Assembly (NCBI GenBank): GCA_964500985.1
Contig: CAZCRB010000002.1
Coordinates: forward strand, 36-64,035
DNA from: an uncultured Eubacteriales bacterium
Lineage (GTDB): Bacteria > Actinomycetota > Coriobacteriia > Anaerosomatales > PHET01
Length of the DNA stretch: 64,000 bases
Direction: 5' to 3'
Part shown: in pieces, positions 19,747-56,192 of the stretch
Layout: every line of letters begins with the position of its first letter
Position numbering within the stretch: the first letter of the stretch is position 1
Made by a program: the position numbers and the translations under genes
The notes under the pieces: generated by a model
Database searches by the model: none
What the model saw: the letters and a program-made list of their open reading frames with translations, nothing else
What the model was told of the DNA's origin: nothing

Positions 19747-19749
19747 CGG

Positions 19750-23431: not shown

Positions 23432-23442
23432 GCGGCCCTCCG

Positions 23443-24298: not shown

Positions 24299-24307
24299 GA
24301 CACCCTC

Positions 24308-25624: not shown

Positions 25625-25666
25625 CGAACGACGCTCCTTCCTTGCGTTTCGCTCGACCGGACGGCG

Positions 25667-26512: not shown

Positions 26513-26624
26513 TCCCTCTCCCCCTGTCAGAGCCAGCACGCCGACCCGAGCGGGTGACGAGCGCACTTCAGTCTATATAATAGTACGCAGAGCGTCGTTG
26601 CGAGCACCCCTCGGAGGTACGCAA

Positions 26625-29279: not shown

Positions 29280-30074
29280 CTAGCGCGCGGCTGGCAAGGT
29301 GGCCGCCACGTCGAGGGCGTGCTGTTTCAGTTCGGCCGCGGAGACGCCCGGCTGAGCGGTCGCAATCACTTCGAACGCATACCGGCCGCGCGAGAACGCC
29401 ACGACGGCGACGCGAACACCGTCGGTGCCGAAGTACGCGTCCGGCACGACCCCCACAGCGACTTTCGCGCCGTCTTGCGCGTATGCCTCGCCGTCCACCT
29501 TGGTCACGAACTCCTTGGCGGCGGCGGCAGAACCCCGGTCGTGGGCGTTCACGATCACGCGAACGACCTGCCGAGAAGGCGCCGTCCGCGCCTCGGGCTC
29601 GAAGGTCACCAGCGCGTCTTTACCCTCGACGACCACGCTACCCGCCGACCAGCCCGTGATGGCGGCAGGCAGGAGAGCCGCGAGCTTGATCTCCTTGAGA
29701 TAGGCATCCTGCGAAGGCTGCGTACTGGGCTTCGCCGGCGGCTTGGCGCCTGCGTCGGCGTTCGCCTTCTCGGCCTCGTCGATCCGGTCGAGCACCGTGC
29801 GCGCCGCAGCGTTGGCCGCGTCGAGCTTGAGTGCCTGCTGGGCAAGCTGGCGGGCAGCGGCGGTGTCCTCACGCGAGGCGGCCGCCTGTGCGTCGGCAGC
29901 CAGCCCCTGCGCCTGCAGCTCAGCCGACTGCGCTGTGTTCTGAGCGGGCTCGTCGGCCGACTTTGGCGACGAGACGGCCGCCACGACGAAGATGACCACT
30001 GCGAGAGCGACGACCGCGGCGGTGAGCCACAGGACCCGCTTCACGCCCGGGGTCAAAACGGTGCCCTTACCCAT
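29280..30074 (-). CDS. Membrane-anchored hypothetical protein (TPR-like helix, Pro/Lys linker, conserved C-terminal domain)
   Basis: N-terminal TM; C-terminal YFGTDGVRVAVVAF shared with 42767..43603. Confidence 0.75.
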   Translation of the reverse strand: MGKGTVLTPGVKRVLWLTAAVVALAVVIFVVAAVSSPKSADEPAQNTAQSAELQAQGLAADAQAAASREDTAAARQLAQQALKLDAANAAARTVLDRIDEAEKANADAGAKPPAKPSTQPSQDAYLKEIKLAALLPAAITGWSAGSVVVEGKDALVTFEPEARTAPSRQVVRVIVNAHDRGSAAAAKEFVTKVDGEAYAQDGAKVAVGVVPDAYFGTDGVRVAVVAFSRGRYAFEVIATAQPGVSAAELKQHALDVAATLPAAR

Positions 30075-30129
30075 GTCCTACCTCCATACCATGCCCGCGT
30101 GTGGTGTTCCGGCCACCCGCGCGCATCGT

Positions 30130-33100
30130 CTATCGGCTATACGATTTCGCCACCAGCGGTAGCGTGTGGCAGTCCGCGGTGCACGAGCCGCCCGTGCCGC
30201 TCGGTGTCCAGGTGAACGGGCCGCTGCCGGCCCAGTATCGGAGCAGATGTTCCTGCTGAGGTACGCCGTGGCTCGCATGGCACGCCTCGCAGGCGACGCC
30301 GAACGATGCGTGCCGCGCGTGCAGCGGGGTGCCGGGCGAACCCGACGCATAGAAGCCGCTACGGTCGCCGGCCACGCCGTCATCGGCGCCGGTGCCGTAC
30401 ACCGATTCCTTGTGGCACCGGTAGCACAGCATGCCGCTGTCGGCAGAGGTCGCCCCACGATACGGGCGCTGCAGCAGCGGAGCGTCCGGCGAGCGATGCG
30501 GTCCGCTCGGGCCGGAAGCCGATGAGGTCCCATGACACGAACCGCACCGGATCGTGCCACCGACCGCCGCCGCGGTCGTCATGGTCGAGCCGGTGGCGTT
30601 CGTCGACGTGTCCAGCGATCCCTCGATCGGATGGTACGAGGCGCCCAGCGTGTTGACCTGTGAAGCGATGCGGGTACGCGCGGGGGCCGCGGGATCCCAC
30701 TTCGAGTGGCAGAAGAAGCACGCCTCGTACTCCGCGGCTGCGCGGACGGGACCCGTCAGGGTCAGCGTGGTTGCCGTCGAGTTCTCGACCGCGACGCCAC
30801 GGGCACCGATCAACTCGCCGGGCAGGGCCGCCGTGTCGGCGGCGCCCGACTTGGCCAGATGCGAGTCATGGCAGTCGGCGCACTCGACATGGCGCGAGGC
30901 AGGGCTCGACTCGGTCGAGACGTGCGATGCGACCGCCGCACCCACCGGGTGCCGCGACGGCCCCACAGCGCCGAGGTCGGCCACGAGCACGGTCGCCGCG
31001 GTGCCGCCGACCTCCGCGCCACCGGCCGTCAACGCGAAGGCGGGGGTGACGTCGGTACCGGACCCGTTGGGCGTGTAGACAGCGATACGCGGCTCGACCG
31101 CGGTGGACGTACGAGTGAAGGCGCCGGCGAGCGCAACGAGCAGGTCTTTGTCGCCATCGCCGTCAGCGTCGCCAAACGCCAATGACGCGGCGTTGGTCCG
31201 CGTCCCGGTTGAGTGGTTGACCGCCGACCCGAACCCGCCACCGGCCGCCTGCTCGATGACGCGCACGCCGCTCGCGCCGTTCGAATCGGCATAGGCGAGC
31301 GCCACTTCGGCCCCGGACGTTCCCGCGGGCGTCACCCCATCGAGTATGTCGGCCGCAAGGATCGCGGTCGGCACGGTGCCCGCCGGCAACGGTCCGCCGC
31401 CATCGGCATAACGGGCGCCGGAGCCGTCGAAGAACGAGACCGTCTCGGAAGGAACCGCCGAGCTCACGCTGGCCACCGCGATCTCGCGCTTCGCGGAATC
31501 GCCGTCGAGGTCCGCGACCGCCACGGCGACCGGCTGGTCGTTGGTCGGATACGTGCCGCTCTCGACGGGCGTACCCGTCACGGCGGAGTAGATGCTCAGC
31601 TCGTCAGTGGCCTCAAAGGTGAGCACCAGCTCGGACTGCACTCCGGCGGCGATGTCGCCCGCCGCGATGGCGGAGGGCACCCGGGACAGCGGCAGCGAAC
31701 CGACGGCGTCGAGTGAGCCGCCACTGAGCCTCAAGACCCTGAGGACATCGTCCGCGGTCACGACGATGACCTCGGGCAGGCCGCTCGGATCCGCTTCCAC
31801 GTCGGCGACGGCAAGCAGCCTGACCACGGAACCGCCGGGCACCGAGAGCAACCGCGAACCGATGCCGCCCGCCTCGGCGTCCCGCTCAACGAGCGCGAGC
31901 TGGGCTGCGGCGGCGTCGGCGACGAGCAGCTCCTTGACGCCGTCCCCATCGATGTCGCCGGCTGCGGCGGCACCGACCGCCGAGACCGGCGCGACCTCAC
32001 GCGGTCCGACCGGCTCTGCGGCCGCCGTCGCGATGCGGGCGAACACCTGGACGCGCCCGTACTGCGCGCTCGCAGCCGAGCCCCAGGCGCCGATCACCTC
32101 GAGGCCCGGGGTGGTGGGCGCATAGCGCAGCGCCGCGAAGTCCGTGGATGCCGGACCGGACGAATCGTGGCAGGAGTCGCACAACGCACGGCCCTGCGCC
32201 TGGAGCATGTCGGGAACCACGGAACCGGACGCATCGGTGGCACCCATGACCGCGTGACAGGCCTGGCATTCGCCGACGCGGCGCGACATTGGCGCGTCCA
32301 CCCACTCGCCCGCAACGGTCACCGTCGCCGTCGAGGAGGCGTGGGACGAGCCCGGATACGTCGCCGCACCGGACCAAGTCCCGAGCGAGGCTCCGTGACA
32401 GCCGAAGCACTGGGTGCGGTCGTTGGCGGTCACGGTGGCCGGCACCGAGGCCGACGGGGTCGTCAGGCGCGTCCTCAGCGAGGGTGCCACCGGCGATCCG
32501 TGGGGGTCGTGACACGCCGAGCAGACGATCGCCGTGCCGCCGGCCGCCGTCGGGATGCGCGAGTGCGGGGTCTGCTGCCAGACGGCGAGTCCGGGAAACG
32601 CGCTGCCCGGGCGCACGCCGTGGCAGGTACCGCAGACGGCATCACCCGAGAAGACCAGCGTGCCGGTCGCCGTCGCCGTCCGCAACAGTGCCGCATACGG
32701 GGTACCACTGGCGTTTCGTGCCGCGCCGTGGGTGTCGTGGCACGTGCTGCACTGCTTGGAGGGCCCAAAGGCCGAGGCCGACGGCTCAAGCGAGTGACCG
32801 GACGCCGTTGAGAACGCGCTTTCGACGTCGGAACCGGAGCCCAGAGCATCGACCCCATGACACGAGAAGCACAGCCCCGTGTCGCCAAGGCCCCCCGAAC
32901 CCACGAGCAGCGCGTTGCGCGACGGGGAGTCGGAAGTGGGCTTGAACGCGGTGGCGTCATTGAACGACGTGTGGCCCCGATGACACATGGCGCAGGTGTC
33001 GGTGTCGGCCGATGTCGACACGTGTGGCGGGGCGACGGTGCCGGCGGTCGCAGCACTCGGGAACGCGATCGCGCATGCGACCGCAAACACGGCGAAGGCC

Positions 33101-33153
33101 GCGAGGGCTGAACCCCCGCGGCCTAGAGCGTATGTCCGAGTGCGTGGCGTCAC
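30130..33153 (-). CDS. Secreted multiheme cytochrome c with central FG-GAP/VCBS beta-propeller (~14 hemes)
   Basis: Signal peptide; 8 CxxCH, then repeats (GDIDGDGVKELLV, ADLDGDSAKREIAV, GDADGDGDKDLLV), then 5 CxxCH and 1 CxxxCH. Confidence 0.88.
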   Translation of the reverse strand: MTPRTRTYALGRGGSALAAFAVFAVACAIAFPSAATAGTVAPPHVSTSADTDTCAMCHRGHTSFNDATAFKPTSDSPSRNALLVGSGGLGDTGLCFSCHGVDALGSGSDVESAFSTASGHSLEPSASAFGPSKQCSTCHDTHGAARNASGTPYAALLRTATATGTLVFSGDAVCGTCHGVRPGSAFPGLAVWQQTPHSRIPTAAGGTAIVCSACHDPHGSPVAPSLRTRLTTPSASVPATVTANDRTQCFGCHGASLGTWSGAATYPGSSHASSTATVTVAGEWVDAPMSRRVGECQACHAVMGATDASGSVVPDMLQAQGRALCDSCHDSSGPASTDFAALRYAPTTPGLEVIGAWGSAASAQYGRVQVFARIATAAAEPVGPREVAPVSAVGAAAAGDIDGDGVKELLVADAAAAQLALVERDAEAGGIGSRLLSVPGGSVVRLLAVADVEADPSGLPEVIVVTADDVLRVLRLSGGSLDAVGSLPLSRVPSAIAAGDIAAGVQSELVLTFEATDELSIYSAVTGTPVESGTYPTNDQPVAVAVADLDGDSAKREIAVASVSSAVPSETVSFFDGSGARYADGGGPLPAGTVPTAILAADILDGVTPAGTSGAEVALAYADSNGASGVRVIEQAAGGGFGSAVNHSTGTRTNAASLAFGDADGDGDKDLLVALAGAFTRTSTAVEPRIAVYTPNGSGTDVTPAFALTAGGAEVGGTAATVLVADLGAVGPSRHPVGAAVASHVSTESSPASRHVECADCHDSHLAKSGAADTAALPGELIGARGVAVENSTATTLTLTGPVRAAAEYEACFFCHSKWDPAAPARTRIASQVNTLGASYHPIEGSLDTSTNATGSTMTTAAAVGGTIRCGSCHGTSSASGPSGPHRSPDAPLLQRPYRGATSADSGMLCYRCHKESVYGTGADDGVAGDRSGFYASGSPGTPLHARHASFGVACEACHASHGVPQQEHLLRYWAGSGPFTWTPSGTGGSCTADCHTLPLVAKSYSR

Positions 33154-34535
33154 GCGCCAGCGCCCTCCTTCTCGGCGCCAAGCGCCGTTTCGACATCTGT
33201 CGGGTCAGGGACTCGTCCCTGCTCGGCGGCAACATCCACCGCTCTCATAAGCGCGGCATATGCCAACTGCGGCTCAGTGTCCTCAGGAATCGCACTCGCG
33301 ATACGGTCGGCCCACGAAGGCGCGGCGCCATCGAGCGATGCGCGCATGAGCCAGGCCACCGCCGCAGCGGCGCTATAGGGCGAATCAGCCATGCCGACGT
33401 CGTTGAGTTCGGTGAACTCCCACGACACCTTCAGGCCGGACGCGAACGCCTCTTCGACCTCCGGAGCGACCCCCGGCGGAATCAGCAGAACGAGGATCGC
33501 GACGCCCTTGAGGGCCCAGCGAAGCTCCATGAGCGTGCTGGCGATCTTGGCACGCAGGTCGGCGGGGGCGCCGGTGAACATGTCGAACCGGTCGAGGATG
33601 ATCGCGGTCGCACGATAGCGGGCCTGCGCGTAACGGAGGATGGCGGCGAGGGTCTTTGTCGGGGCCTTGGAGATCTTGAGCTCCTCGGCCATCGAACCGG
33701 TGCCCTGGGCGACGTAAGCGCGGATACCGCGGGCCACGACCGGCGACAGCGACTCCTCGGTTGCAGCCACGACGTAGTCGCGCACGAGCGCATCGACGTC
33801 GACCGTCTCGCCCGGCGGCAGCTCCCGCTCGCGCACCTCACCGAGGGGCGTGACGAACGCATCGGCCATCGGGTCGTCGAGCGCGGCCTCGTCATCGGGG
33901 ACGGCACCGTCCTCGCCGGGGTCCGAGTCGAGGCGGTCGAGGCGGGCGGTGGCCACCCGCATGAGCACTTCCGTGTCCTCCGCGCCCTCGCGGGTCATCT
34001 CGGGCGCGCCGAACACGCGTGCGACGAAGGCGGCAGGATCGGCGTCCAGCTCTGCGATCAGCGCAGTGACGTCCGCGTCCACGAGAAGCGCCGACCACTG
34101 GTCCAGCGACGAGACCGGTTCCACGAGCATCTTGCGAGTCCAAGCGGCCAGCATCAGGTCGCACCCACCGCCGCTGACGCGCTCCGCAGCCGCGGAGAGC
34201 ACCGCACGGACGCGACCCACGCGCATCATGTCCAGCGGCACGTAGACTCCGAGAACGCCCTCGACCGGGTCCTGCTCGGCGAGGGACTTCATGACCTGGG
34301 CAAGGGCGGCGACCGGATAGAACGGCGGCACCTTGTCGGTCTTGGCAACGGCGATCGGCCGCATCTCTGCCTCGTCGGCGGTGCGGTCGATTGCCGCGAG
34401 AACGCCGAGCGCGGCGGAGCGGACGCTCAGCCGATTACCCATGGGATCGTACTCGCCGGCCTCGGTCGGCGTGAAGGGATTCGCGACGAGTCCGAGCGAA
34501 CGAGGGCCGCCCGTGGCGGCATCGAGTTCAGGCAC
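33150..34535 (-). CDS. Hypothetical protein, possibly degenerate AAA/ExeA-like ATPase
   Basis: GLVANPF N-terminus and Walker-B-like IILDRFD, but no Walker A; GTGA overlap with the next gene. Confidence 0.6.
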   Translation of the reverse strand: MPELDAATGGPRSLGLVANPFTPTEAGEYDPMGNRLSVRSAALGVLAAIDRTADEAEMRPIAVAKTDKVPPFYPVAALAQVMKSLAEQDPVEGVLGVYVPLDMMRVGRVRAVLSAAAERVSGGGCDLMLAAWTRKMLVEPVSSLDQWSALLVDADVTALIAELDADPAAFVARVFGAPEMTREGAEDTEVLMRVATARLDRLDSDPGEDGAVPDDEAALDDPMADAFVTPLGEVRERELPPGETVDVDALVRDYVVAATEESLSPVVARGIRAYVAQGTGSMAEELKISKAPTKTLAAILRYAQARYRATAIILDRFDMFTGAPADLRAKIASTLMELRWALKGVAILVLLIPPGVAPEVEEAFASGLKVSWEFTELNDVGMADSPYSAAAAVAWLMRASLDGAAPSWADRIASAIPEDTEPQLAYAALMRAVDVAAEQGRVPDPTDVETALGAEKEGAGA

Positions 34536-34620
34536 GCGTATGCACTTCCTTACCTCTGGGGCTCTGGGACGAATCGGCCGGATTCCTGCGCCCGTCGGGC
34601 GCTACCCCGTAGTGTCTTAG

Positions 34621-34626
34621 ATTATA
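34621..34626 (-). promoter_or_regulatory. -10 box (TATAAT) for the 34535..27695 operon
   Basis: Perfect TATAAT 86 nt upstream of the start. -35 region is non-consensus; a half-site of the island palindrome lies at 34654-34660. Confidence 0.5.
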
Positions 34627-34699
34627 GGCTTTCAGCAAAGTTTGTGCACCGTTGTTACAAGCCAGACGCGCAGGTGATGAGCACGCCGCAGAGCCGCGA

Positions 34700-34732
34700 G
34701 AGGGCCCCGGACGAATGTCGTCCGGGGCCCTC
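34700..34732 (-). terminator. Hairpin after OmcS-like gene 1
   Basis: Perfect 15-bp stem GAGGGCCCCGGACGA-ATG-TCGTCCGGGGCCCTC. Confidence 0.7.
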
Positions 34733-34769
34733 CGTTGCACGCCCCTGGGCGTGGGTGCCTGGTTGCGCG

Positions 34770-36062
34770 CTACTTGTTGTGGCAGCGCTCGCACACGCCG
34801 CGGTTGTCGGTGCGCAGAAGCGCGCTCGACACGTTCGGGGTGACGCCGGCCTTGCCACCAACGAGCGTGGTGGTGGGCTCGACGGTCCACGTAACGACTG
34901 CGGTCGGGTGATTCACGAGGCGGGCATTGGCCCAACCGCTCATCTGAGCAGCGGTGCCGTGCGCACGGTGGCACGTCAGGCAACCGAGGTTGTCCTGAAG
35001 CTCGTACTCACCGCGAGCGGCCGTGCTGTTGGGACGGCGCTCGAGCGGCAGAACGCTCGAGGTGACCGCGTCGCTACCCCAGCCGTTGAGCTGGGTCACC
35101 GTGACCGGGGCCACGTTGACAGGGTGGCGGTGGCGAGCACGCGCGCCGACCGAAGCGGTCCCGCCGGTCACGCTGAGCGTGCCGTTGGCATCGCGAGCGA
35201 CCGTGCCGTTGGACTCGAACTGGCCGTAGTCCAGCGTGCCGGTGCGATCGTCGTACTGGGTGTGGCAAGCCGCACACCAGGTCGACATCGAACGATAGGC
35301 GGTACCCGAGTAGCCAGCCGGGAACTTGAACGCGTACTCCGCGGTCGTGTAGTTCGGGCGATACGACGCCATCTGGGTCGCGCCGGGGTTGTGCTTGAGC
35401 CAGCCGCCGTTGATCGCCGAGGCGTTCGAGTTGACGGGGTAGCCCTGCTCAGCCGAGAAGACGAACGGCTGGGGGGTGTCGCCGTTGTAACCACCGACGG
35501 TGACACCGTTGACCGTGTCCTTCAGCAGGCGGTAGTTCGACGAACCGTGCGGATCGTGGCAACCGGTGCAGGTGAGGTTCGTGCCGCCGGAAGCGGAGGA
35601 ACCCGAGCCCCACATCGGATCGGTGGCCGCACCCTTGTCCATGTCGTGCATGGAGGTCGAGATGCCGGTGTTGAACGCACCACCGTTCAGGCCGCCGAGG
35701 AACGCGGAGTTGGTCTCATACATGATCGAGCCGCCCGCGGTCTGAGTCGCAGACCCGGAAGGGCCGGAGTCGAAGAGGCCCATCTCTACGTTGGTCGAAG
35801 CGCCCGGAGCACCGTCGCCGTGGCAGGCGTAGCAGAACTCCTCCATCGTCTGCGCAGATGACACGAGCAGAGCGCTGTGGTCATTGCCCGCAACGTCTTC
35901 CCATGACAGGTTCGAGAACGAGGTGTGAGCGCGGTGACAGCCGGCGCACGCGTCGGTGTCCAGTGCATAGCCGCCGTGCGGTCCGAAGTTGGCGAACGCA
36001 GAACCGGCGGTCGCGAAGAGCGCTACAACGCTGATCGCGAGGATGATTGCTAGTTTCTTCAC
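34770..36062 (-). CDS. Secreted OmcS-like hexaheme cytochrome c (hydrogenase module)
   Basis: Sec signal peptide; 6 CxxCH in 430 aa; HGG..CAGCHRAH, CHDPHG..YRLL, MSTWCAACH, RHP, CLTCHRAH; C-terminal CERCHNK. Confidence 0.82.
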   Translation of the reverse strand: MKKLAIILAISVVALFATAGSAFANFGPHGGYALDTDACAGCHRAHTSFSNLSWEDVAGNDHSALLVSSAQTMEEFCYACHGDGAPGASTNVEMGLFDSGPSGSATQTAGGSIMYETNSAFLGGLNGGAFNTGISTSMHDMDKGAATDPMWGSGSSASGGTNLTCTGCHDPHGSSNYRLLKDTVNGVTVGGYNGDTPQPFVFSAEQGYPVNSNASAINGGWLKHNPGATQMASYRPNYTTAEYAFKFPAGYSGTAYRSMSTWCAACHTQYDDRTGTLDYGQFESNGTVARDANGTLSVTGGTASVGARARHRHPVNVAPVTVTQLNGWGSDAVTSSVLPLERRPNSTAARGEYELQDNLGCLTCHRAHGTAAQMSGWANARLVNHPTAVVTWTVEPTTTLVGGKAGVTPNVSSALLRTDNRGVCERCHNK

Positions 36063-36079
36063 TCAGTTCACCCCCTTCT

Positions 36080-38236
36080 CTAGTGGACCGCGCACGCGAT
36101 GCACGGATCGAAGGACTGGGCAACACGCAGGGCCTCAACGCCACCACCGGCACCGCCGGCGATCGGGGCACCAGCACCACCCTTGGCCGCAGTCTTGGTC
36201 AGAGAGTACTCGACGTTGAGCATCGACTGCTCCATCGGGCCCTCGACGCCGCTGTGGTCCTTGGGCGATGCGTTCCAGGTGGTCGGCACGATGCACTGGT
36301 AGCGATCGATCTTACCCGCGGTGATCGTGCACATGTGCATGAGAGCACCACGCGGAGCCTCGGTCGCACCAAAGCCCTCGGTCGTACCGGGGTTCGGGGC
36401 CATCTGGTAGTACGAGTCGGCGCCCACCGGCAGAATGCTGAGCTGCTTGAGCCAGCCCCCGTCGGCGAACGTCACGGGCAGCGCGGCGGTTGCCGGAGCT
36501 GCGACGGCGCCGATCATCTGCTGGATCAGCACGAGCGACTCGATCGCGCGGGCGCGCAGGCGGTCCATGTTGGACAGCCCGGCCTTGAGACCGAGTACCC
36601 AGTCAGCCACGGGGCCGGTGATGACCGCGTGAGCGTGCTGGTAGGCCGTGACGATCGTGGCCTTGTCGAGACCGGAGATGACCGTGTCGTCGACCACGAG
36701 GTCGGGGCCGCCACCCGCGAGGCCGCCGACAACCGTCAGCGTGGCCACGCCGGAACGGACACACGCGACCGCGAGGTCGGGGTGGATCAGCTTGGGCTCG
36801 AGGCCGGTGACCGCACCGTCGACCTTCTTGTACGCGGCGTAGCCGGTGATCCCGGGCGCAGCGACGGTCGAGGCCAGGGTCTGGCCGCCCTTGAAGATGC
36901 CGTTGACGGCCAGGCGCGCGAGCGGCCCGACCTCCATCGGGTTGCCGTTCCAGCGCGGGGCCTTGAGCCAGGAGTACTTGGCGTCATCGGTGCGCAGCGG
37001 AGCGGTGCGGACCTCGGTGCGGGGGTTCGTGATGTCGGTCGCCGCATCGATGACGGCGGTGCCGTCGGCGTTGAGGGCCGTGACCGAACCCTGATAGCGC
37101 GAGTACGTGATGTGCTCACGCAGGTTGTTGTGCACGTCGGTCTTCGAGATGAACGACTTGGTGCCGCCAGCCAGGTAGGTGGCCTTGAGCATGAAGCCGC
37201 GGCCGATACCCAGCGTGCCGTTGGTCTGCGGGAACGCACCCCATGCGAGGAAGTTGCCGCAGCCGCCGCCCCAGCCGGTGTTGGTAGCGTCCGGATCGCC
37301 AGCGGCGCTCTTGTTGCCAAGCGCCCACAGCGTCGGGTACGCGCCCTTCAGCAGGGTGGCGTTGTCGAGGTTGTCGTAGTTCGGGTACAGCGCGCCGAGC
37401 GCAAGGAACAGCGGCACGTACTCGCGAACGATGAAGTCACCGATCTCCGTCATCATCGAGCGGAAGCGGGTGATCTTGGTCGACAGGTCCTCGTTCTTGT
37501 TGGTGGTGACGCCACCGCCGACGAAGCACGAGGTCATCGGCATACGTCCGGCGAACATCGCGCCGGCCTCGAAGGTGAGGCGACGGATGCGCAGCGCCTT
37601 GACGTACTGCTTGATGACCGCCGACCACAGCTCCTTGGAGAAGCCCTCGACATCGACCGGCAGCGTGCCATGGGCAGCGTCAGCCGGATTGGCAGCCGCA
37701 CCGTTGCCCTGCGAGAGCAGGAGCGGGTGGTAGAAGCTGTCGTCGAAGTACGGCGTCCACGGCGGGACGTTGGGGCCCTGAACGTAGCTCGGGGCGGCAA
37801 GGTGATACATGTGCGTGATGCTCGACATGAGGAACTCGGCCGAGAGCACGAGGTTGCGGACGTGAACCGCCTTCTCCGGGATGCCCTGACCGGTCGGCAC
37901 GGGTACCGTGCTGCTGCCGTCGGTGCTCGAGAGCTGGTTGCCGCCCTTGACCCACGTCTGGAAGCAGTCGTTGTAGCCGAGGACCGAATCGACCGCGAAG
38001 GTCGAGGCCTGGCCGTGCGGTACCGGACACACACCGCAGATGCGCTGCGTGAACGTGATCGCATCGTTGATGTCGCGGCCGATGAGGAAGTTCTCAAAGC
38101 CACGCCACAGGTTGCCGTGGACGTCGGCGCCGGTTACTTTCTCGGCGTCGGTGCGACCGGCGATCGGGGCGGTGGTGAGCTTCACGCCGAGGTGACCCTC
38201 GATGCGTGAAATAGGATCGACTTCCTTGATTGCCAT
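36080..38236 (-). CDS. [NiFe] hydrogenase large subunit, group 1 (1a/Hys-like, Cys form)
   Basis: DPISRIEGH; L1 QRICGVCPVPH; EAPRGAL; L2 FDPCIACAVH followed directly by the stop codon. Confidence 0.95.
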   Translation of the reverse strand: MAIKEVDPISRIEGHLGVKLTTAPIAGRTDAEKVTGADVHGNLWRGFENFLIGRDINDAITFTQRICGVCPVPHGQASTFAVDSVLGYNDCFQTWVKGGNQLSSTDGSSTVPVPTGQGIPEKAVHVRNLVLSAEFLMSSITHMYHLAAPSYVQGPNVPPWTPYFDDSFYHPLLLSQGNGAAANPADAAHGTLPVDVEGFSKELWSAVIKQYVKALRIRRLTFEAGAMFAGRMPMTSCFVGGGVTTNKNEDLSTKITRFRSMMTEIGDFIVREYVPLFLALGALYPNYDNLDNATLLKGAYPTLWALGNKSAAGDPDATNTGWGGGCGNFLAWGAFPQTNGTLGIGRGFMLKATYLAGGTKSFISKTDVHNNLREHITYSRYQGSVTALNADGTAVIDAATDITNPRTEVRTAPLRTDDAKYSWLKAPRWNGNPMEVGPLARLAVNGIFKGGQTLASTVAAPGITGYAAYKKVDGAVTGLEPKLIHPDLAVACVRSGVATLTVVGGLAGGGPDLVVDDTVISGLDKATIVTAYQHAHAVITGPVADWVLGLKAGLSNMDRLRARAIESLVLIQQMIGAVAAPATAALPVTFADGGWLKQLSILPVGADSYYQMAPNPGTTEGFGATEAPRGALMHMCTITAGKIDRYQCIVPTTWNASPKDHSGVEGPMEQSMLNVEYSLTKTAAKGGAGAPIAGGAGGGVEALRVAQSFDPCIACAVH

Positions 38237-38260
38237 CTAACGTTTCCCTCCTTCCATCAC

Positions 38261-39685
38261 TTAGAGGATCACGAACGGCAGGAAGGCGTCCGGATAGCCC
38301 TTTTCCGTGCAAGCCATGCACGGGTGGCCACCGGCGACGCAGTTGCCGCCCTTGTTTCCGTTGGTTCCACCGACTCCGTAGTCGAGCGTGGAGTCGTTGC
38401 GCGGGTTCTGGCCGTTCCAGCCGTGAGGACCACAGAGAGTCATGGTCTGCGGGCCCTTGCAGCCGATGAGCTGCAGGCAGCCCGGCTCGCCCGGCTTGGT
38501 CGCGAACACGCCGTTGAGGGCGTCCTGGTAGCGCTTGCAGTACGGACCGTGCAGCGGCACACCGTAGACAGCCTTGAGGCGGCGCTGCTTGTCGACCGCG
38601 CTCGCGTTGATCGACACGTTCAGTCCGGCGCCATTGCGGTGCAGGATCTTGAGCGGGCCGTCAGCGCCGACTGCGGACTGGGTGAAGTCCACGAGCCACG
38701 CAACGACTGTCAGCACGAACCACCACGGGTTGGTCGGGCAACCGGGGACCGCGACGACCTTGTCGGCGGCAGCGATACCCGCCGCGCCGCACTTGGTCCG
38801 CAGGAACTCCTCGGTGCCAAGAGCACCGGTCTGGCCCTCGCCCAGGATCGGCGAGACACATGCCGGGTATCCACCGAAGCACGCACACTGGCCGATCGGG
38901 ATGATCGCGGCGCACTTGGGGTGGGTGGCGAGATCCTTGACGGTCTCGTCAAACGAATGCTCGGCGGTGCCGGCCTCGTTCATGCCGATGGAACACCACG
39001 CGGCGCCATCGTGCAGCGCGCCGTCGCCGGCGTTCCAGTAGCCGCCCTCGTCCTTGGGCTGAATCGAGCCCTCGACGACGAGAACGAACGGGGTGGAGGC
39101 GCCGGCCGTGTCCTTGCGGAGCTGGTCGAGCCACTGGTACGCGAGGTCGCCGCCCATACCCATGACCGTCTCATGATACTGAAGGTCGATGAAGTCGATG
39201 AGCACGTCGGCGATCGTCGCGACGAAAGCGCTGTTGCCGCCATTGGTGCCGGCAGACTCGAAGTTCACGCCGGTACCCGAAAGGGCACTCGCGGCGCTGG
39301 ACTCGAAGATGGTGCGGTGACCGTACGGGTGATCCGCACCGGTCTCCTTGGTGATGCCGAGAGCGGCCGCAGTGGCCGAGCCGGCTACGTTCCCGCCGTC
39401 GCCGTTGCCACCAACGGCGTAGTCGAGAGCCTTCAGCGTAGAGATGCTGGTGCCCTCGATAGCGGTGCCTCTGACGTCTTCGAAGAGACCCAGAAGCGAG
39501 GTCGAGCAGCCCGTGCACTCCGCGCCATGAACCCAAACCACCTTGGGCTTGTCGGTCCATGCGCCCGTCCATACGGAGCCGTGAGCAAATGCTTCGGCGA
39601 CCTTTGCGAGGTCGACTTGGCTCATGCCCATGGCCGCTGCCAGGGTGCCCAACCGGGTGACAAACTGTCGCCTGGTTATCGCCAT
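38261..39685 (-). CDS. [NiFe] hydrogenase small subunit with Tat signal
   Basis: ITRRQF twin-arginine motif; HGAECTGCS, GQCACFGG, PGCP, HGPYC, GCKGP and GHPCMAC motifs. Confidence 0.95.
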   Translation of the reverse strand: MAITRRQFVTRLGTLAAAMGMSQVDLAKVAEAFAHGSVWTGAWTDKPKVVWVHGAECTGCSTSLLGLFEDVRGTAIEGTSISTLKALDYAVGGNGDGGNVAGSATAAALGITKETGADHPYGHRTIFESSAASALSGTGVNFESAGTNGGNSAFVATIADVLIDFIDLQYHETVMGMGGDLAYQWLDQLRKDTAGASTPFVLVVEGSIQPKDEGGYWNAGDGALHDGAAWCSIGMNEAGTAEHSFDETVKDLATHPKCAAIIPIGQCACFGGYPACVSPILGEGQTGALGTEEFLRTKCGAAGIAAADKVVAVPGCPTNPWWFVLTVVAWLVDFTQSAVGADGPLKILHRNGAGLNVSINASAVDKQRRLKAVYGVPLHGPYCKRYQDALNGVFATKPGEPGCLQLIGCKGPQTMTLCGPHGWNGQNPRNDSTLDYGVGGTNGNKGGNCVAGGHPCMACTEKGYPDAFLPFVIL

Positions 39686-39944: not shown

Positions 39945-40003
39945 TTGTAACGGTTGTTACATTACCTCTGGCTAATCCTATCGCGCCCGTCCGAGGCGGT
40001 CAA
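39945..40003 (-). promoter_or_regulatory. Hydrogenase operon promoter with palindromic operator
   Basis: TTGACC (40003-39998) N17 TAGGAT (39980-39975); operator TTGTAACGGTTGTTACAT at 39945-39962. Confidence 0.75.
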
Positions 40004-40041: not shown

Positions 40042-41559
40042 TCAGCTGGTCGGCGGCTGGTCACCGGCGCGATCCGCGTACTTCTTGGAGAGCGGTGTCC
40101 GCGCGATGAACTCCTCGCTGTCGACCACGGGTGCCTCAAGGACACGTGCGATACGACGCAGCTCGGCGTCCTCGGTGCAGAAGAGCTTCGCGCGCTGTGC
40201 GACCGCCATGATGCCCGCGTCTCGCCAACTCAGCTCATAGCGCTCCTGCAGTGCGCGTGCATCCGACTCGGAGAACTCGACGGGATTCAGCAGTTCGGCG
40301 AGCGAGATGCCGTCCTGGGCGAGGCCCTTGAGGTCCTCGTAGTCCTCCGTCATGACCTCCCAGCGCACGCGGCGGATGTCCATGCGCGCGATCTCGCCTG
40401 CGGCGAACAGCGCGTACACGAAGTCAGGCGTGGCGAAGTAGCGGCGGCGGCGCAGCAACAGCAGCAGCGGCAGGAGCAGCAGCGGCGAGAGGCACAGCAG
40501 CCACCCGGTCGGCGTTGTGGGCGTCGGAATCGGGTTGGCGGCCGCCGGCCAGCCCCACACCTGGATGCGCCCGTTGGCGGTGTCGGCGATGAATATGCGG
40601 CGGCGGGCGTCGACCGACGTGTCGTTGGGGTAGCTGAACTGCCCCTCCAGCACGCCATGCTCGCCGAAGGAGACGACCTTCTCGGCCTTGCGAGCGTCCC
40701 AGATGGTGCCGTCGTGGGCGAGCGTGTCGATGACCACCAGACGGCGCGGCTCTTCCTTCTTGAGCTTGGGCAGGAAGTCGAACCCGCGCGGGAGTCCCTG
40801 CGTGATGACCATCCGCTTGTACTCGCCCGCCCGGTCGAAGACCTGGATGCGGCGGTTGTTGGAATCGGCGACCCAGACCTCGTTACCGATGACCTTGATC
40901 GAGTTGGGGAACTGGAAGACCCCGGGGCCCTCCGACGCCTCGTTGACGAGGCCGGCGGTGCCCACGCTACGACGGAACGTGCCGTCGGGCGCGAAGATGA
41001 GCATGCGGTGGCCGTTGAGTATCTCGGTCACGTAGAGGGTGCCGTCGGGCGCAAAGTCCAAGGCGACGGGCGCCCACTGGAAGCCCTGCGTATCGAACTT
41101 GGGAAGCTGGTCGGCGGGCAGCTTGGGATCGAACTGCTTCTTGAACTTGCCGTCCTTCGAGAAGATGAACACGCCCTTCTTGCGGCGGTCCGTCACGTAG
41201 TAGTCCCCCGTCTTGGGGTGCTGCGCGACGTAGAGCGGGACGAGCAGATTGCCCTTGCCCCAAGTCGCGATGTGCGTGCCGCGAGGCGTGAACACCTCGA
41301 TGGCGCCCTTGCGCGAATCGGTCACGAGGACCTTGTTGTCGGCGGAGAGCACCCCGAGCGGCCTGACCAGCTGGCTCTGCCCGGCACCCGAGAAGGAGTA
41401 CAGGTACTGCGGGGCGGGCAGCAGCTCGGCTTGGTTGAAGTCGATCTGCACACCGATCGTCCGCGTGTTGCGGTAGTTGACGTACGCGGCGCCGATGAGC
41501 GCCAGCAAGACGATGAGCGCGACTATCGCGATGATCTGACGGATTCGCCTGCGAGACAT
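40042..41559 (-). CDS. NHL-repeat beta-propeller protein with two TM anchors and a PIN-like C-terminal tail (copy 1)
   Basis: NHL repeats (FQFPNSI..VADSNNRRIQVF; FSYPND..IADTANGRIQV); TM at both ends; tail RDAGIMAVA..CTEDAELRR. Confidence 0.85.
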   Translation of the reverse strand: MSRRRIRQIIAIVALIVLLALIGAAYVNYRNTRTIGVQIDFNQAELLPAPQYLYSFSGAGQSQLVRPLGVLSADNKVLVTDSRKGAIEVFTPRGTHIATWGKGNLLVPLYVAQHPKTGDYYVTDRRKKGVFIFSKDGKFKKQFDPKLPADQLPKFDTQGFQWAPVALDFAPDGTLYVTEILNGHRMLIFAPDGTFRRSVGTAGLVNEASEGPGVFQFPNSIKVIGNEVWVADSNNRRIQVFDRAGEYKRMVITQGLPRGFDFLPKLKKEEPRRLVVIDTLAHDGTIWDARKAEKVVSFGEHGVLEGQFSYPNDTSVDARRRIFIADTANGRIQVWGWPAAANPIPTPTTPTGWLLCLSPLLLLPLLLLLRRRRYFATPDFVYALFAAGEIARMDIRRVRWEVMTEDYEDLKGLAQDGISLAELLNPVEFSESDARALQERYELSWRDAGIMAVAQRAKLFCTEDAELRRIARVLEAPVVDSEEFIARTPLSKKYADRAGDQPPTS

Positions 41560-41601
41560 GCTTGCGCTGTCCTCTCCGTGAAGGGAACTTCGGGATCGCT
41601 T

Positions 41602-42636
41602 CTACTTGCCGAGTGACGCCTGGAGCTGCGCGATCTCTTTGTTGCTCGTGTCGAGCTTCGCGGCCTCGGTGAGGACCTGCTTCGCGCCCTTCTTGTCGCC
41701 CTTGGCGATGAGGATCTTGGCGTGAAGTATCGCAGCATCGACATCGCTCGGCTCGAGCGCGCGTGCGAGCAGGACCGCCTCGACCGCCTCGTCCAAGCGC
41801 TTGTCGGCGTAGGCGGCCTGGGCCTGCTTCAGCGCGTCTTCGCCGCTACCGAGCTTCTCGAGGGCCTTGCGCGGCAGGTCGGCCTCGGGGGCGAGGTCCG
41901 CGGCTTTGCGCAGGTGCACGGCCGAGTTGATCTTGTCGTTGCGCGCCAGGAGGATGATCCCGTAAAGGTAGTGGGCCTCAGCGTAGTTCGGATCGAAGGC
42001 GAGGGCGGCATCAAGCTGCTCGAGGGCGGCGTCATCGTCCTCGAGCCCGTGGAGGGACTGCGCGAGGAGGTAGTAGGTGTCGGACGCGTCCTTGCGGATG
42101 CGCAACGACGCCTTGAAGAAGCCGGCGGCATCCTCGTAGCGCTTGTCGTCGAGGGCGATCTCGCCCAGATGGAACAGCGCGGTCTCGCGGCGCTGGTTGA
42201 TGTTCTCCATCGTCTGGCCCTCGGTCAGCTCGACGACCTTGGTGAAGTAGCGCTCTGCGTTGGCGGTGTCCTTGGTCTCCATGGCGACGAGGCCGAGGTC
42301 GAGGTACGCGCCCGTGTGCTTGTTGTCTAGCTTGATGGCGGCCTTGAACTGCTCGGTGGCATCACGGTAGACGCCGGCCGAAGCGAGCGCCTCACCGTAG
42401 CGAACGCGGGCCGCCGCGCTGTTGGGGTTCTTCTTGACGAAGTTGCGGAGCTCGACCAGCGCGCGCTGGGCCGGGGTGGCCGTCGCCTCGACGCGAGTGC
42501 TCTGCCAGATGGTGTAGCCGAACAGCGCGGCAAGGCCGAGGACTCCGGCGACGAGCGCGATGATGACGTAGCGAAGAAGCGAATCGGTCCGGTCGGAACG
42601 GACGTCGGGCGTGGCGCCCGATGCGTGTTCTGTCAT
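41602..42636 (-). CDS. Membrane-anchored TPR protein (copy 1)
   Basis: N-terminal TM; multiple TPR repeats (ALAFDPNYAEAHYLYG). Confidence 0.88.
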   Translation of the reverse strand: MTEHASGATPDVRSDRTDSLLRYVIIALVAGVLGLAALFGYTIWQSTRVEATATPAQRALVELRNFVKKNPNSAAARVRYGEALASAGVYRDATEQFKAAIKLDNKHTGAYLDLGLVAMETKDTANAERYFTKVVELTEGQTMENINQRRETALFHLGEIALDDKRYEDAAGFFKASLRIRKDASDTYYLLAQSLHGLEDDDAALEQLDAALAFDPNYAEAHYLYGIILLARNDKINSAVHLRKAADLAPEADLPRKALEKLGSGEDALKQAQAAYADKRLDEAVEAVLLARALEPSDVDAAILHAKILIAKGDKKGAKQVLTEAAKLDTSNKEIAQLQASLGK

Positions 42637-45045: not shown

Positions 45046-45074
45046 GGTCCTCCTTGCATGCCGTTCTCATCCGA

Positions 45075-45112
45075 CGGAAAGGGCCGGGGTCGCGTGCCCC
45101 CCGGCCCTTCCG
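45075..45112 (-). terminator. Hairpin after OmcS-like gene 2
   Basis: Inverted repeat GGAAAGGGCCGGGG..CCCCGGCCCTTCC. Confidence 0.65.
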
Positions 45113-45141
45113 ACGGTATCAGATTGTGATGCGAGAACCGG

Positions 45142-46446: not shown

Positions 46447-46449
46447 GCC

Positions 46450-47388: not shown

Positions 47389-47401
47389 CGGTCACACCTC
47401 C

Positions 47402-51283: not shown

Positions 51284-51426
51284 ACCTCGTTCCCTTCCGA
51301 GTCATGGACATGGCATGTATGGCTTGCGAGAAAACTGAGCTCCCACCCCTCACCGGGGCGTTGCTCGGCGCCGGCCTGAGCCAGCCCTCCTTTCCGTGCA
51401 GTGTGGTGCCGTGCCTGCGGGAGCGG

Positions 51427-51480: not shown

Positions 51481-51599
51481 GAAGAACACATATGCGGACG
51501 AGCCTCCCTTACCCTGGGTCGTAGCGCGACAACGAGCGGGCCATTGCCGGTGGCTTCCACTCAGGACTCCCCGTTTGCCGGCGAGAAGCCCGTCGCGCC

Positions 51600-51698: not shown

Positions 51699-51754
51699 GT
51701 CCATATCCTGTTGTATCAAGCGGTCGCACTGCTCGTCGAAGAGACTTCTGTGCC

Positions 51755-56167: not shown

Positions 56168-56192
56168 GAAGTCTGCCGCAGCTCCTTTGTCG

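What the first reader, a model, noticed from the sequence alone, without database searches (positions are those of the whole stretch)
36080..39685. Oversized Hys-like hydrogenase with Cys instead of Sec and large insertions in both subunits
The large subunit ends at DPCIACAVH with no cleavable extension, a trait of group 1a [NiFeSe]-type enzymes. It uses TGC at the Sec position even though the organism appears to make selenoproteins. At 718 and 474 aa both subunits are far longer than typical (~500 and ~300 aa). There is an ~87-codon Gly/Ala/Ser-rich insert at about 39215-39476 in the small subunit and a ~100-codon region at about 36580-36900 in the large subunit. These could be docking or oligomerisation surfaces for the hexaheme (inference).
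Basis: partly seen in the sequence, partly recalled or inferred. Interest (0 to 1): 0.62.

Follow-up and report, generated by a model that had tools for sequence, protein, structure and literature searches.

The report
Oversized exported hydrogenase with hexaheme partner
This is a real, transcribed nickel-iron hydrogenase from an undescribed actinobacterial clade whose two subunits are about 40% larger than their nearest relatives, which skips the usual final trimming step, and which always sits next to a six-heme cytochrome; the extra pieces look like variable surface additions, not a conserved docking site.

Summary
The sequence facts hold. The small subunit HydS (38261-39685, 474 aa) carries a Tat export signal. 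The large subunit HydL (36080-38236, 718 aa) has RICGVCPVPH and a terminal DPCIACAVH followed directly by TAG, with TGC at the Sec-equivalent position. A hexaheme gene lies 17 nt downstream.

The enzyme belongs to a monophyletic, uncharacterised clade of Actinomycetota (119 full-length large subunits, 644-934 aa). All members use Cys and none has a C-terminal extension. Its nearest relatives are short (~455-490 aa) group-1a/[NiFeSe]-type enzymes at about 30% identity.

Sec-type relatives do carry 15-17 aa extensions, so the missing extension is a trait of this clade, not of [NiFeSe] enzymes. The hexaheme shows no sequence similarity to OmcS.

The excess length is spread over 11 sites in HydL (224 aa) and 9 in HydS (161 aa). 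The HydL inserts are predicted to fold, but they are the least conserved and most length-variable parts. Relatives carry up to about 250 further residues at the same sites.

Oversized hydrogenase and hexaheme co-occur in every locus, searched in both directions, but this reflects a single evolutionary origin. I read it as an extracytoplasmic uptake hydrogenase feeding its own hexaheme. The better docking candidates are small conserved changes near the distal and medial clusters. Verdict: new variant of a known kind.

The parts
38261..39685 (-). hydS, [NiFe]-hydrogenase small subunit, 474 aa. It has a Tat signal (MAITRRQF...) and no C-terminal membrane anchor.
   Evidence: Pfam Oxidored_q6 and NiFe_hyd_SSU_C. 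The best NCBIfam and PDB matches are the NiFeSe small subunit, below cutoff. Invariant cluster ligands are C57, C60, C267, C316 / C418, C449, C456, C459 / H379, C383, C403, C409. None of 120 homologues has a hydrophobic C-terminus.
39218..39475 (-). Main small-subunit insert (aa 71-156), rich in Gly/Ala/Ser/Thr. It has conserved islands (TL.ALD.AVGG, H..GHRT, G.DFD) and variable linkers.
   Evidence: The segment is absent from 35 short relatives. Family occupancy is 0.76 and top-residue frequency 0.44, against 0.75 in the core. AF2 confidence is moderate for aa 68-120 and below 50 for aa 128-149. H..GHRT is present in 70 of 120 homologues.
38342..38410 (-). Small conserved inserts between the first and second Cys of the medial cluster (aa 426-448). 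Together with the H-x3-C spacing of the distal-cluster ligands (H379/C383), these are the clade-specific changes nearest the electron exit.
   Evidence: Occupancy is about 1.0 and top-residue frequency 0.55-0.76. H-x3-C occurs in 38 of 38 family members, against H-x2-C in 31 of 31 short relatives with the motif.
36080..38236 (-). hydL, [NiFe]-hydrogenase large subunit, 718 aa plus the stop codon.
   Evidence: Pfam NiFeSe_Hases, 6e-79. AF2 gives pLDDT 88.6 and pTM 0.92. The best Foldseek match is 1cc1_L, TM 0.82 normalised to the target.
38015..38044 (-). L1 motif RICGVCPVPH (aa 65-74), holding two of the four Ni-Fe cysteines.
36083..36109 (-). L2 motif DPCIACAVH (aa 710-718), the last residues of the protein. 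A TAG stop follows, and the first Cys is TGC where [NiFeSe] enzymes have TGA/Sec.
   Evidence: All 119 full-length homologues end at this His and use Cys.
36593..36880 (-). Largest cluster of large-subunit inserts (aa 453-466, 472-477, 480-487, 495-548), predicted to form a small alpha/beta subdomain.
   Evidence: segments and conservation. In one search the 10-residue blocks over aa 451-550 have mean pLDDT 72-96 (most 90-96), with strands and helices at 470-548.
37886..37972 (-). Large-subunit insert aa 89-117.
   Evidence: occupancy 0.59, top-residue frequency 0.30.
37643..37711 (-). Large-subunit insert aa 176-198.
   Evidence: occupancy 0.61, top-residue frequency 0.33.
37280..37375 (-). 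Large-subunit insert aa 288-319. Relative P0104 carries a further 40 aa at this site.
37040..37168 (-). Two short large-subunit inserts, aa 357-366 (37139-37168) and aa 386-399 (37040-37081).
   Evidence: top-residue frequency 0.30 and 0.21.
36461..36514 (-). Large-subunit insert aa 575-592. Relatives P0063 and P0111 carry about 250 further residues at this site.
36158..36205 (-). Gly-rich large-subunit insert aa 678-693, just before the C-terminal helix and L2 motif.
   Evidence: pLDDT is about 70.
34770..36062 (-). hexA, a secreted hexahaem c-type cytochrome of 430 aa (six CxxCH, signal peptide ending ...AFA|NF). It starts 17 nt after hydL and is the presumed electron acceptor.
   Evidence: It lies downstream of every oversized hydL. 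It has no PDB sequence match, OmcS included.
39975..40003 (-). Promoter-like site in the 356-nt gap upstream of hydS.
   Evidence: consensus match only. Metatranscriptome contigs cover hydS-hydL-hexA but hardly cover the flanking genes.
40042..42636 (-). Conserved upstream pair: a membrane-anchored TPR protein (41602-42636) and an NHL beta-propeller protein with two predicted TM segments (40042-41559).
   Evidence: Pfam. The pair is present upstream in every oversized locus with enough flank.
29280..34535 (-). Conserved downstream genes: p461 (33150-34535, no Pfam match), a 1007-aa multihaem cytochrome with FG-GAP repeats (30130-33153), and p264 (29280-30074, membrane-anchored).

Best explanation
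hydS-hydL-hexA encodes an extracytoplasmic, Tat-exported [NiFe] uptake hydrogenase with its own hexahaem cytochrome c acceptor. It belongs to an uncharacterised, monophyletic clade of anaerobic Actinomycetota (Coriobacteriia-like; closest genome HGW-Actinobacteria-7). The catalytic core is that of a group-1a-type enzyme: four Cys at the Ni-Fe site (Cys, not Sec), three Cys/His-ligated clusters with a four-Cys medial cluster, no cytochrome b and no membrane anchor. Inferred path: H2 is oxidised outside the membrane of a single-membrane cell, electrons leave through the distal cluster to HexA, and they pass on to neighbouring multihaem proteins, either to the cytochrome b/quinone pool or to extracellular acceptors such as Fe(III). 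The large subunit is made without the C-terminal extension, so the usual endopeptidase checkpoint before Tat export is skipped. The extra ~385 residues are clade-specific additions at permissive surface loops. They are folded in HydL but evolve fast in sequence and length, and in some relatives have grown into whole extra segments. I infer that they are surface elaborations (for example for retention or packing outside the cell membrane) and not the conserved cytochrome-docking site. The small conserved changes next to the distal and medial clusters (H-x3-C spacing, the aa 426-448 inserts) are the better candidates for adaptation to HexA. Shown: identity, motifs, clade, gene order, transcription. 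Inferred: direction of electron flow, partner, role of the inserts.
For: - Identity and closest relatives.
- Motifs and codons.
- Cluster ligands are invariant in 38 small subunits. None of 120 has a C-terminal anchor.
- All 119 full-length homologues use Cys and lack the extension.
- The clade is distinct. Scores drop from over 380 to about 200 bits, core identity is 68% within the clade against 37.5% to short relatives, and NJ monophyly is 50/50.
- The TPR-NHL-hydS-hydL-hexA-p461 gene order is conserved in all 15 oversized loci and absent from 71 other loci. In the reverse search, 29 of 77 hexahaem loci follow an oversized hydL and 36 follow an FdhAB-like pair.
- No cytochrome b or endopeptidase lies in the operon or within +/-10 kb in L001/L002, and no Pfam match to a hydrogenase maturation protein was found among the 43 window ORFs scanned.
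- The inserts are folded in HydL but poorly conserved and indel-rich. Larger additions sit at the same sites in relatives.
- The conserved changes near the distal and medial clusters are shown.
- Transcription: metatranscriptome contigs, some with 0-1 mismatches, cover hydS, hydL and hexA.
Against: - No biochemical data exist for any clade member.
- HydDB classification and a maximum-likelihood tree with reference sets were not run.
- No complex model or model coordinates were available, so the position of the inserts relative to the distal cluster or HexA is unknown.
- The small-subunit model is poor (pLDDT 60.6).
- Some insert pieces are conserved (aa 480-494 of HydL; TL.ALD.AVGG and H..GHRT in HydS) and could still be partner contacts.
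- Neither HydSL nor HexA has an obvious anchor, so how the enzyme is retained is unexplained.
- Contig depth from metatranscriptomes is a weak measure, and conserved genes recruit relatives.
Confidence: 0.6

Rival explanations
1. One reading: the large inserts in both subunits are docking or oligomerisation surfaces for the adjacent hexahaem cytochrome.
For: - Oversized subunits and hexA co-occur strictly in both search directions.
- The HydL inserts are predicted to be ordered.
- Some insert cores are conserved.
- The divergent relatives (P0261, P0263, P0264) have shorter inserts at the same sites. The related lineage seen in L018 keeps hexA with a shorter large subunit.
Against: - The inserts are the least conserved parts (0.21-0.44 against 0.71-0.75) and vary in length, while hexA is 40-67% identical across the clade.
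- Unrelated extra segments of 40-250 aa sit at the same sites in relatives.
- Short relatives pair with other multihaem cytochromes without inserts.
- The co-occurrence is one phylogenetic event.
- The main HydS insert lies in the N-terminal (proximal-cluster) domain by sequence position, not in the domain that holds the distal cluster (inference).
Confidence: 0.2
2. The inserts are functionally neutral accretions at tolerant loops, and the enzyme works like any short group-1a hydrogenase.
For: - Conservation is low and indels are frequent.
- The composition is G/A/S/T-rich.
- The neighbouring exported FdhA-like enzyme is also about 280 aa longer than D. vulgaris FdhA, which suggests a lineage-wide tendency.
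Against: - The inserts are retained at the same sites throughout a clade whose large-subunit cores have diverged to a minimum of 58% pairwise identity.
- Most are predicted to fold with high confidence.
- Conserved islands lie within them.
Confidence: 0.15
3. The enzyme is not a respiratory uptake hydrogenase. It would instead be an H2 sensor (which would explain the missing extension) or an H2-evolving enzyme that takes up extracellular electrons.
For: - A natural lack of the C-terminal extension is known mainly from sensory (2b, 2d) and group 4c/4e/4g enzymes (PMC7294309).
- A chemotaxis gene cluster lies about 3-10 kb downstream here and in L001.
- [NiFe] enzymes are reversible in principle.
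Against: - The Tat signal, full cluster set and hexahaem partner are unlike cytoplasmic sensors.
- Similarity is to group 1a, not group 2.
- The chemotaxis synteny is absent in the more distant L002.
- Related organisms grow on H2 with Fe(III) or sulfur acceptors (PMC9686372). That paper describes a different hydrogenase in them.
Confidence: 0.05

Closest known systems
[NiFeSe] hydrogenase HysAB of Desulfovibrio vulgaris Hildenborough / Desulfomicrobium baculatum (group 1a)
   Same: It is the best sequence and fold match for both subunits. Shared features are Tat export, no cytochrome b, no anchor, a four-Cys medial cluster and a c-type cytochrome as partner.
   Different: - Identity is about 24-30%, and scores are far below the NCBIfam cutoffs (304.6 against 600; 139.6 against 470).
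- It has Cys (TGC) instead of Sec.
- It has no C-terminal extension, whereas the Sec-type relatives found here have 15-17 aa.
- It carries 224 extra residues in the large subunit and 161 in the small subunit.
- The distal-cluster ligands are spaced H-x3-C.
- The partner is a dedicated 430-aa hexahaem, not cytochrome c3.
Short Cys-type group-1a-like hydrogenases (~455-490 aa) of Desulfobacterota, Planctomycetota, Syntrophomonadaceae and others
   Same: They are the nearest relatives by HMMER. They share the L1/L2 motifs and the four-Cys medial cluster. Some have adjacent multihaem cytochromes.
   Different: They have none of the inserts. Most have a 13-50 aa C-terminal extension, with five exceptions. 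None has a hexA homologue or the TPR/NHL genes.
Group 1i 'Coriobacteria-type' [NiFe] hydrogenase
   Same: It occurs in the same broad taxon and is also a group-1 uptake type (PMC5037454; PMC9686372).
   Different: The presumed 1i-type locus L046 is only 26% identical. It has a 20-aa C-terminal extension and a cytochrome b gene directly downstream. The published 1i clusters include cytochrome b and a maturation protease. Neither is present here.
H2-sensing regulatory hydrogenases (groups 2b/2d) and group 4c/4e/4g enzymes
   Same: Their large subunits also naturally lack the C-terminal extension (PMC7294309).
   Different: They are cytoplasmic or membrane-integral and not Tat-exported, and they belong to different sequence groups. 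Here the lack of an extension occurs in an exported group-1 enzyme, where cleavage is normally the checkpoint before export.
OmcS hexahaem nanowire cytochrome of Geobacter
   Same: It has six CxxCH haem sites, a similar size (~430 aa) and is secreted.
   Different: No detectable sequence similarity. phmmer against all PDB chains found no OmcS chain at E<=10. Filament formation was not tested.

Membership tests
[NiFe] hydrogenase, group 1 (exported respiratory uptake type) | Large-subunit L1 (RxCGxCxxxH) and L2 (DPCxxCxxH) motifs supplying four Cys to the Ni-Fe site | tested here: met
   RICGVCPVPH (aa 65-74) and DPCIACAVH (aa 710-718).
[NiFe] hydrogenase, group 1 (exported respiratory uptake type) | Small subunit with a twin-arginine signal and ligands for three Fe-S clusters | tested here: met
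   MAITRRQF is present, and the invariant ligands are C57/C60/C267/C316, C418/C449/C456/C459 and H379/C383/C403/C409.
[NiFe] hydrogenase, group 1 (exported respiratory uptake type) | Large-subunit precursor with a C-terminal extension removed by a specific endopeptidase | tested here: not met
   A stop codon follows the final His, as in all 119 full-length homologues. No protease gene is seen in L001/L002 or the window.
Group 1a / [NiFeSe] Hys-type | Selenocysteine at the first Cys position of L2 | tested here: not met
   The codon is TGC, and all 119 full-length homologues have Cys.
Group 1a / [NiFeSe] Hys-type | Scores above the curated family cutoffs (NCBIfam NF033181, NF045518, NF045520) | tested here: not met
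   304.6 against 600, 266.7 against 780 and 139.6 against 470 bits. These are nevertheless the best-matching families.
Group 1a / [NiFeSe] Hys-type | Four-Cys medial cluster; soluble heterodimer without cytochrome b or anchor; c-type cytochrome acceptor | tested here: met
   Four invariant Cys, no hydrophobic C-terminus, and hexA directly downstream. That hexA is the acceptor is inferred from gene order.
Group 1a / [NiFeSe] Hys-type | Assignment by the HydDB classifier or a reference phylogeny | not testable with these tools
   HydDB is not available here. An NJ tree of session sequences shows a separate monophyletic clade next to short 1a-like enzymes.
Group 1i Coriobacteria-type | Operon with a cytochrome b subunit and a maturation protease; close sequence similarity | tested here: not met
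   There is no cytochrome b or protease in the operon. Identity to the cytochrome-b-linked Coriobacteriaceae enzyme L046 is 26%.
OmcS-like cytochrome (for the adjacent hexahaem) | Six haem-binding CxxCH motifs | tested here: met
   Six CxxCH at positions 39, 77, 165, 263, 361 and 424.
OmcS-like cytochrome (for the adjacent hexahaem) | Sequence or fold homology to OmcS; polymerisation into filaments | tested here: not met
   No PDB sequence hit to OmcS at E<=10.

The most novel reading that the evidence does not exclude
Anaerobic single-membrane Actinomycetota use a modular, wall-side electron-collecting system. In it, paralogous secreted hexahaems each serve one oversized exported dehydrogenase (HydSL for H2, a Sec-FdhAB-like enzyme for formate) and feed a shared cytochrome b/multihaem conduit to quinone or to extracellular Fe(III). 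The clade-specific inserts and the loss of the proteolytic maturation checkpoint would then be adaptations to assembling and holding these large complexes outside the membrane, possibly on a polymerising cytochrome.
Probability: 0.2. Interest if true: 0.75.

Novelty: new variant of a known kind. Interest (0 to 1): 0.5.

Why it matters
- It defines a widespread, transcribed but unstudied lineage of H2-oxidising enzymes in subsurface, sediment, soil and sludge Actinomycetota, organisms already suspected of H2-driven metal reduction (PMC5520028, PMC9686372).
- It is an exported group-1 hydrogenase that naturally lacks the C-terminal extension. That makes it a natural test case for the debated role of the cleavage step as a checkpoint before Tat export (PMC7294309).
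- The paired H2 and formate modules, each with its own hexahaem, give a concrete, testable model for how bacteria with a single membrane wire extracytoplasmic dehydrogenases into respiration or extracellular electron transfer.
- The insertion hot spots show which surface loops of the [NiFe] fold tolerate large additions, which is useful for enzyme engineering.

Tried and rejected
- Exact look-up of the window's HydL in public assemblies found nothing on record. Context was taken from homologues instead.
- The search for related loci with the single protein gave only 5 loci. An alignment query was needed.
- tRNA-Sec or SECIS by ARAGORN/Rfam: none in the window. The evidence for selenoproteins rests on the in-frame TGA of the FdhA-like gene.
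- OmcS similarity of the hexahaem: rejected at sequence level.
- Group 1i membership: rejected.
- Pfam identity of the large extra segments in relatives: none above threshold, only a sub-threshold DUF2460 hit in P0104.
- The AF2 small-subunit model is too poor (pLDDT 60.6) to judge its insert.
- Mapping inserts onto a HydS-HydL-HexA complex was not possible.
- Literature searches found no description of this clade or of a hydrogenase-hexahaem operon in Actinomycetota. One search was malformed.
- The first MAFFT run timed out and was repeated on a thinned set.

Full report
**What is at the coordinates.**

- On the minus strand, 38261-39685 encodes a 474-aa [NiFe]-hydrogenase small subunit (HydS), with Pfam Oxidored_q6 and NiFe_hyd_SSU_C.
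- 36080-38236 encodes a 718-aa large subunit (HydL), with Pfam NiFeSe_Hases at 6e-79.
- The two genes are 24 nt apart.
- A 430-aa cytochrome with six CxxCH motifs (hexA, 34770-36062) starts 17 nt after hydL. Each gene has a purine-rich, ribosome-binding-site-like stretch upstream.
- HydL has L1 RICGVCPVPH and ends ...DPCIACAVH followed by TAG. The Cys at the position that is Sec in [NiFeSe] enzymes is TGC.
- HydS starts MAITRRQF (Tat motif), as do its homologues.

**Closest known enzymes.**

- NCBIfam ranks the [NiFeSe] families first for both subunits, but far below their cutoffs (304.6 against 600 bits; 139.6 against 470).
- PDB sequence searches give the D. vulgaris and Dm. baculatum [NiFeSe] hydrogenases as best hits, matched in 4-5 separate stretches with long unmatched gaps in the query.
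- An AlphaFold2 model of HydL built on 42 homologues is confident (pLDDT 88.6, pTM 0.92).
- Its best Foldseek matches are again the [NiFeSe] enzymes (1cc1_L, TM 0.82 on the target but 0.57 on the query). The core fold is kept and about a third of the model is extra.

**A clade, not an oddity.**

- The large-subunit search returned 119 full-length homologues at 44-63% BLASTP identity, 644-934 aa long (median 700). They come mostly from Coriobacteriia/Actinobacteria MAGs.
- Every one has Cys in L2 and ends exactly at the His.
- The 120 small-subunit homologues are 428-517 aa. None has a hydrophobic C-terminal anchor.
- An exhaustive search of 1.8 billion representatives shows a sharp break. Clade members score above 380 bits, a few intermediate lineages of 616-651 aa score 270-290 bits, and ordinary enzymes of about 460-540 aa score around 200 bits.
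- On 421 shared columns, identity is 68% within the clade and 37.5% to the short relatives.
- In neighbour-joining trees the clade is monophyletic in 50 of 50 bootstraps, and in 46 of 50 when the three intermediate lineages are included.
- The published description of cultured OPB41/Anaerosomatales mentions only a group 1i hydrogenase with cytochrome b and a protease (PMC9686372).
- A Coriobacteriaceae enzyme of that architecture (L046, cytochrome b directly downstream) is only 26% identical to HydL.
- I found no paper describing the present clade.

**The missing C-terminal extension.**

- Reading past the L2 motif in 84 genomic loci shows that the four Sec-type relatives (L040, L067, L078, L080) all carry 15-17 aa extensions. 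Most Cys-type short relatives carry 13-50 aa.
It is a trait of this clade and of five scattered short enzymes (L024, L033, L051, L053, L060).
- One divergent hexA-linked lineage (L018, 35% identity) still has a 22-aa extension. Loss therefore happened inside the wider group.
- The literature lists natural absence of the extension for groups 2b, 2d, 4c, 4e and 4g, not for exported group-1 enzymes (PMC7294309).
- No endopeptidase or hyp gene lies in the window or near the homologues examined.

**Cys versus Sec.**

- The organism very probably does make selenoproteins.
- A Tat-exported FdhA-like gene at about 47402-51280 has an in-frame TGA at 50630-50632, within the motif HQARI-*-HS. It aligns with the Sec position of D. 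vulgaris FdhA.
- A stable hairpin follows the TGA (z = -3.4). A Moco riboswitch lies upstream.
- Cys in HydL is nevertheless universal in the clade. It is an inherited state and not a recent switch in this genome.

**Anatomy of the extra length in HydL.**

- Against 35 short relatives, HydL has 224 extra residues in 11 segments.
- The segments are aa 89-117, 176-198, 288-319, 357-366, 386-399, 453-466, 472-477, 480-487, 495-548, 575-592 and 678-693.
- Within the family, the inserts have a top-residue frequency of 0.21-0.40 and occupancy of 0.47-0.91. The one exception is aa 480-487 (0.65, occupancy 0.99). The core scores 0.71 and 0.96.
- AlphaFold2 nevertheless predicts most inserts as ordered. 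The region aa 451-550 forms a small alpha/beta subdomain; its 10-residue blocks have mean pLDDT 72-96, most 90-96.

**Anatomy of the extra length in HydS.**

- HydS has 161 extra residues in 9 segments.
It is 57% G+A+S+T.
- It contains conserved islands (TL.ALD.AVGG; H..GHRT in 70 of 120 homologues; G.DFD) between variable linkers.
- The HydS model is poor (pLDDT 60.6). Half of this insert scores below 50, so its order cannot be judged.

**Insertion hot spots.**

- Relatives carry further material at the same sites:
  - about 250 aa after residues ~578-598 (P0063, P0111);
  - 40 aa after residue 289 (P0104);
  - about 80 aa after residues 447-454 (P0077);
  - a 153-aa N-terminal addition (P0032 and similar).
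- None of these segments has a Pfam match above threshold.
- The intermediate lineages have shorter inserts at the same positions.
- This is the pattern expected of permissive surface loops that accumulate variable additions.

**Link with the hexahaem.**

- Forward test: all 15 loci with an oversized hydL show TPR-NHL-hydS-hydL-hexA-p461 where the flanks allow. None of the 71 other hydrogenase loci has a hexA homologue.
- Reverse test: of 77 loci found with a hexahaem profile, all in Actinomycetota, 29 follow a hydL. All of these are oversized (616-827 aa where the ORF is intact and complete).
- Another 36 follow a molybdopterin/4Fe-4S pair like the window's FdhA-like enzyme. The rest are in other contexts.
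It is a single inherited state, however, and the hexahaem family is not specific to hydrogenases.
- Several short relatives without inserts sit beside other multihaem cytochromes (9-haem proteins in Planctomycetota, 8-haem in others). In two loci the ORF holding the small subunit also contains four CxxCH motifs. Pairing with a cytochrome does not in itself require inserts.
- The hexahaem has no detectable sequence similarity to OmcS or any other solved protein.

**Where adaptation to the partner more plausibly lies.**

- In known periplasmic hydrogenases, electrons leave through the distal cluster in the C-terminal domain of the small subunit (established knowledge).
- The family has an H-x3-C spacing of the distal His/Cys ligands in 38 of 38 members. 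All 31 short relatives in which the motif was found have H-x2-C.
- It also has conserved short inserts (aa 426-430 and 435-448) between the first two Cys of the four-Cys medial cluster, with full occupancy and top-residue frequency of 0.55-0.76.
- These are better candidates for a HexA interface than the large variable insert, which by sequence position sits in the N-terminal, proximal-cluster domain. This is inference.

**Wider locus.**

- The window holds two paralogous modules on the same strand.
- Module 1 runs from cytochrome b (58494-59372) and three multihaem genes (54554-58678), through a TPR gene (53395-54408) and an NHL gene (51846-53405), to the Sec-FdhA-like gene, a 4Fe-4S subunit (46450-47391), hexB (45142-46446), a polytopic membrane protein and p352.
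- Module 2 is TPR, NHL, hydS, hydL, hexA, p461, a 1007-aa multihaem/FG-GAP protein and p264.
- The paralogue pairs are 40% (TPR), 43% (NHL), 38% (hexahaem) and 28% (p264/p352) identical.
- In L002 the cytochrome b and multihaem genes directly precede TPR-NHL-hydSL.
- This supports a model in which exported dehydrogenases hand electrons to dedicated hexahaems and on to a shared multihaem/cytochrome b system.

**Transcription.**

- The stretch is near-identical in sludge metagenomes (87% of sampled words).
- Contigs from metatranscriptomes, some with 0-1 mismatches, cover hydS, hydL, hexA, hexB and the Fdh genes. The TPR, NHL, p461 and multihaem flanks are almost uncovered.
- A promoter-like site lies upstream of hydS, and another upstream of p461.
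- Caveats: contig depth is a weak measure, conserved genes recruit relatives, and the promoter matches are consensus hits only.

**Verdict.**

- It is wrong on the extension and on OmcS, and unsupported on the docking role of the big inserts.
- The enzyme fails the tested defining features of [NiFeSe]/Hys equivalogs, of group 1i, and of the canonical extension-plus-protease maturation. It keeps the group-1a-type catalytic and cluster set.
- I file it as a new variant of a known kind.

Noticed in passing
window 47402-51301 (-), TGA at 50630-50632; riboswitch 51587-51707 (-): A Tat-exported FdhA-like molybdo/tungsto-enzyme has an in-frame TGA at the catalytic Sec position (HQARI-U-HS), followed by a SECIS-like hairpin, and is preceded by a Moco riboswitch. 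At about 1290 aa it is about 280 aa longer than D. vulgaris FdhA, so it too is 'oversized'.
   Followed up: partly
window 29280-59372 (-): Two paralogous modules are present: TPR, NHL, exported dehydrogenase, hexahaem, and a p264/p352-family protein. One is built around the hydrogenase and the other around the Fdh-like enzyme. Paralogue identities are 28-43%. A cytochrome b and three multihaem genes (54554-59372) lie at the head.
   Followed up: partly
loci L111-L163: The hexahaem family is confined to Actinomycetota in the 77 loci found. It follows an FdhAB-like pair (36 loci) even more often than a hydrogenase (29 loci). In Thermoleophilia it follows TPR-NHL directly with no enzyme (L130, L133; L152 has a similar layout).
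   Followed up: partly
P0063, P0111, P0104, P0077, P0032 (relatives): Some clade members carry 40-250 further residues at the same insertion sites, or a 153-aa N-terminal addition. These segments have no Pfam match above threshold; P0104 gives only a sub-threshold DUF2460 hit.
   Followed up: partly
window 38537-38551 (HydS H379-C383): The distal-cluster ligands are spaced H-x3-C in all 38 family small subunits examined. All 31 short relatives in which the motif was found have H-x2-C.
   Followed up: yes
window 39320-39340 (HydS aa 116-122, HPYGHRT): A two-histidine motif, H..GHRT, lies inside the big small-subunit insert. It is conserved in 70 of 120 homologues and absent in one subclade. Its function is unknown.
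   Followed up: partly
L007:8467-9972 and L021:8742-9917: In two short-enzyme loci the open reading frame that holds the small subunit also contains four CxxCH motifs. This may be a small subunit fused to a tetrahaem cytochrome.
   Followed up: no
L018 (Actinomycetes MAG nzgw113), 8772-13230: A divergent lineage (35% identity) has the same TPR-NHL-hydS-hydL-hexahaem order but smaller subunits (402 and 642 aa) and a retained 22-aa C-terminal extension. It looks like an evolutionary intermediate.
   Followed up: partly
window 30130-33153 (-) and 4278-6479 (-): Two further large multihaem cytochromes are present. One is a 1007-aa protein with FG-GAP repeats (its homologues have 13 CxxCH). The other is a 734-aa MtrC/MtrF-domain protein.
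   Followed up: no
window 19231-26572 (-): A chemotaxis gene cluster (CheD, response regulator, CheW, MCP, CheR) lies downstream. It is syntenic in the close relative L001 but not in L002.
   Followed up: no
window 34553-39488 and 45042-47500: Soil and other metatranscriptome assemblies contain fragments of hydS, hydL, hexA, hexB and the Fdh genes, some of them identical to the window. The flanking TPR, NHL, p461 and multihaem genes are almost absent from these assemblies.
   Followed up: partly
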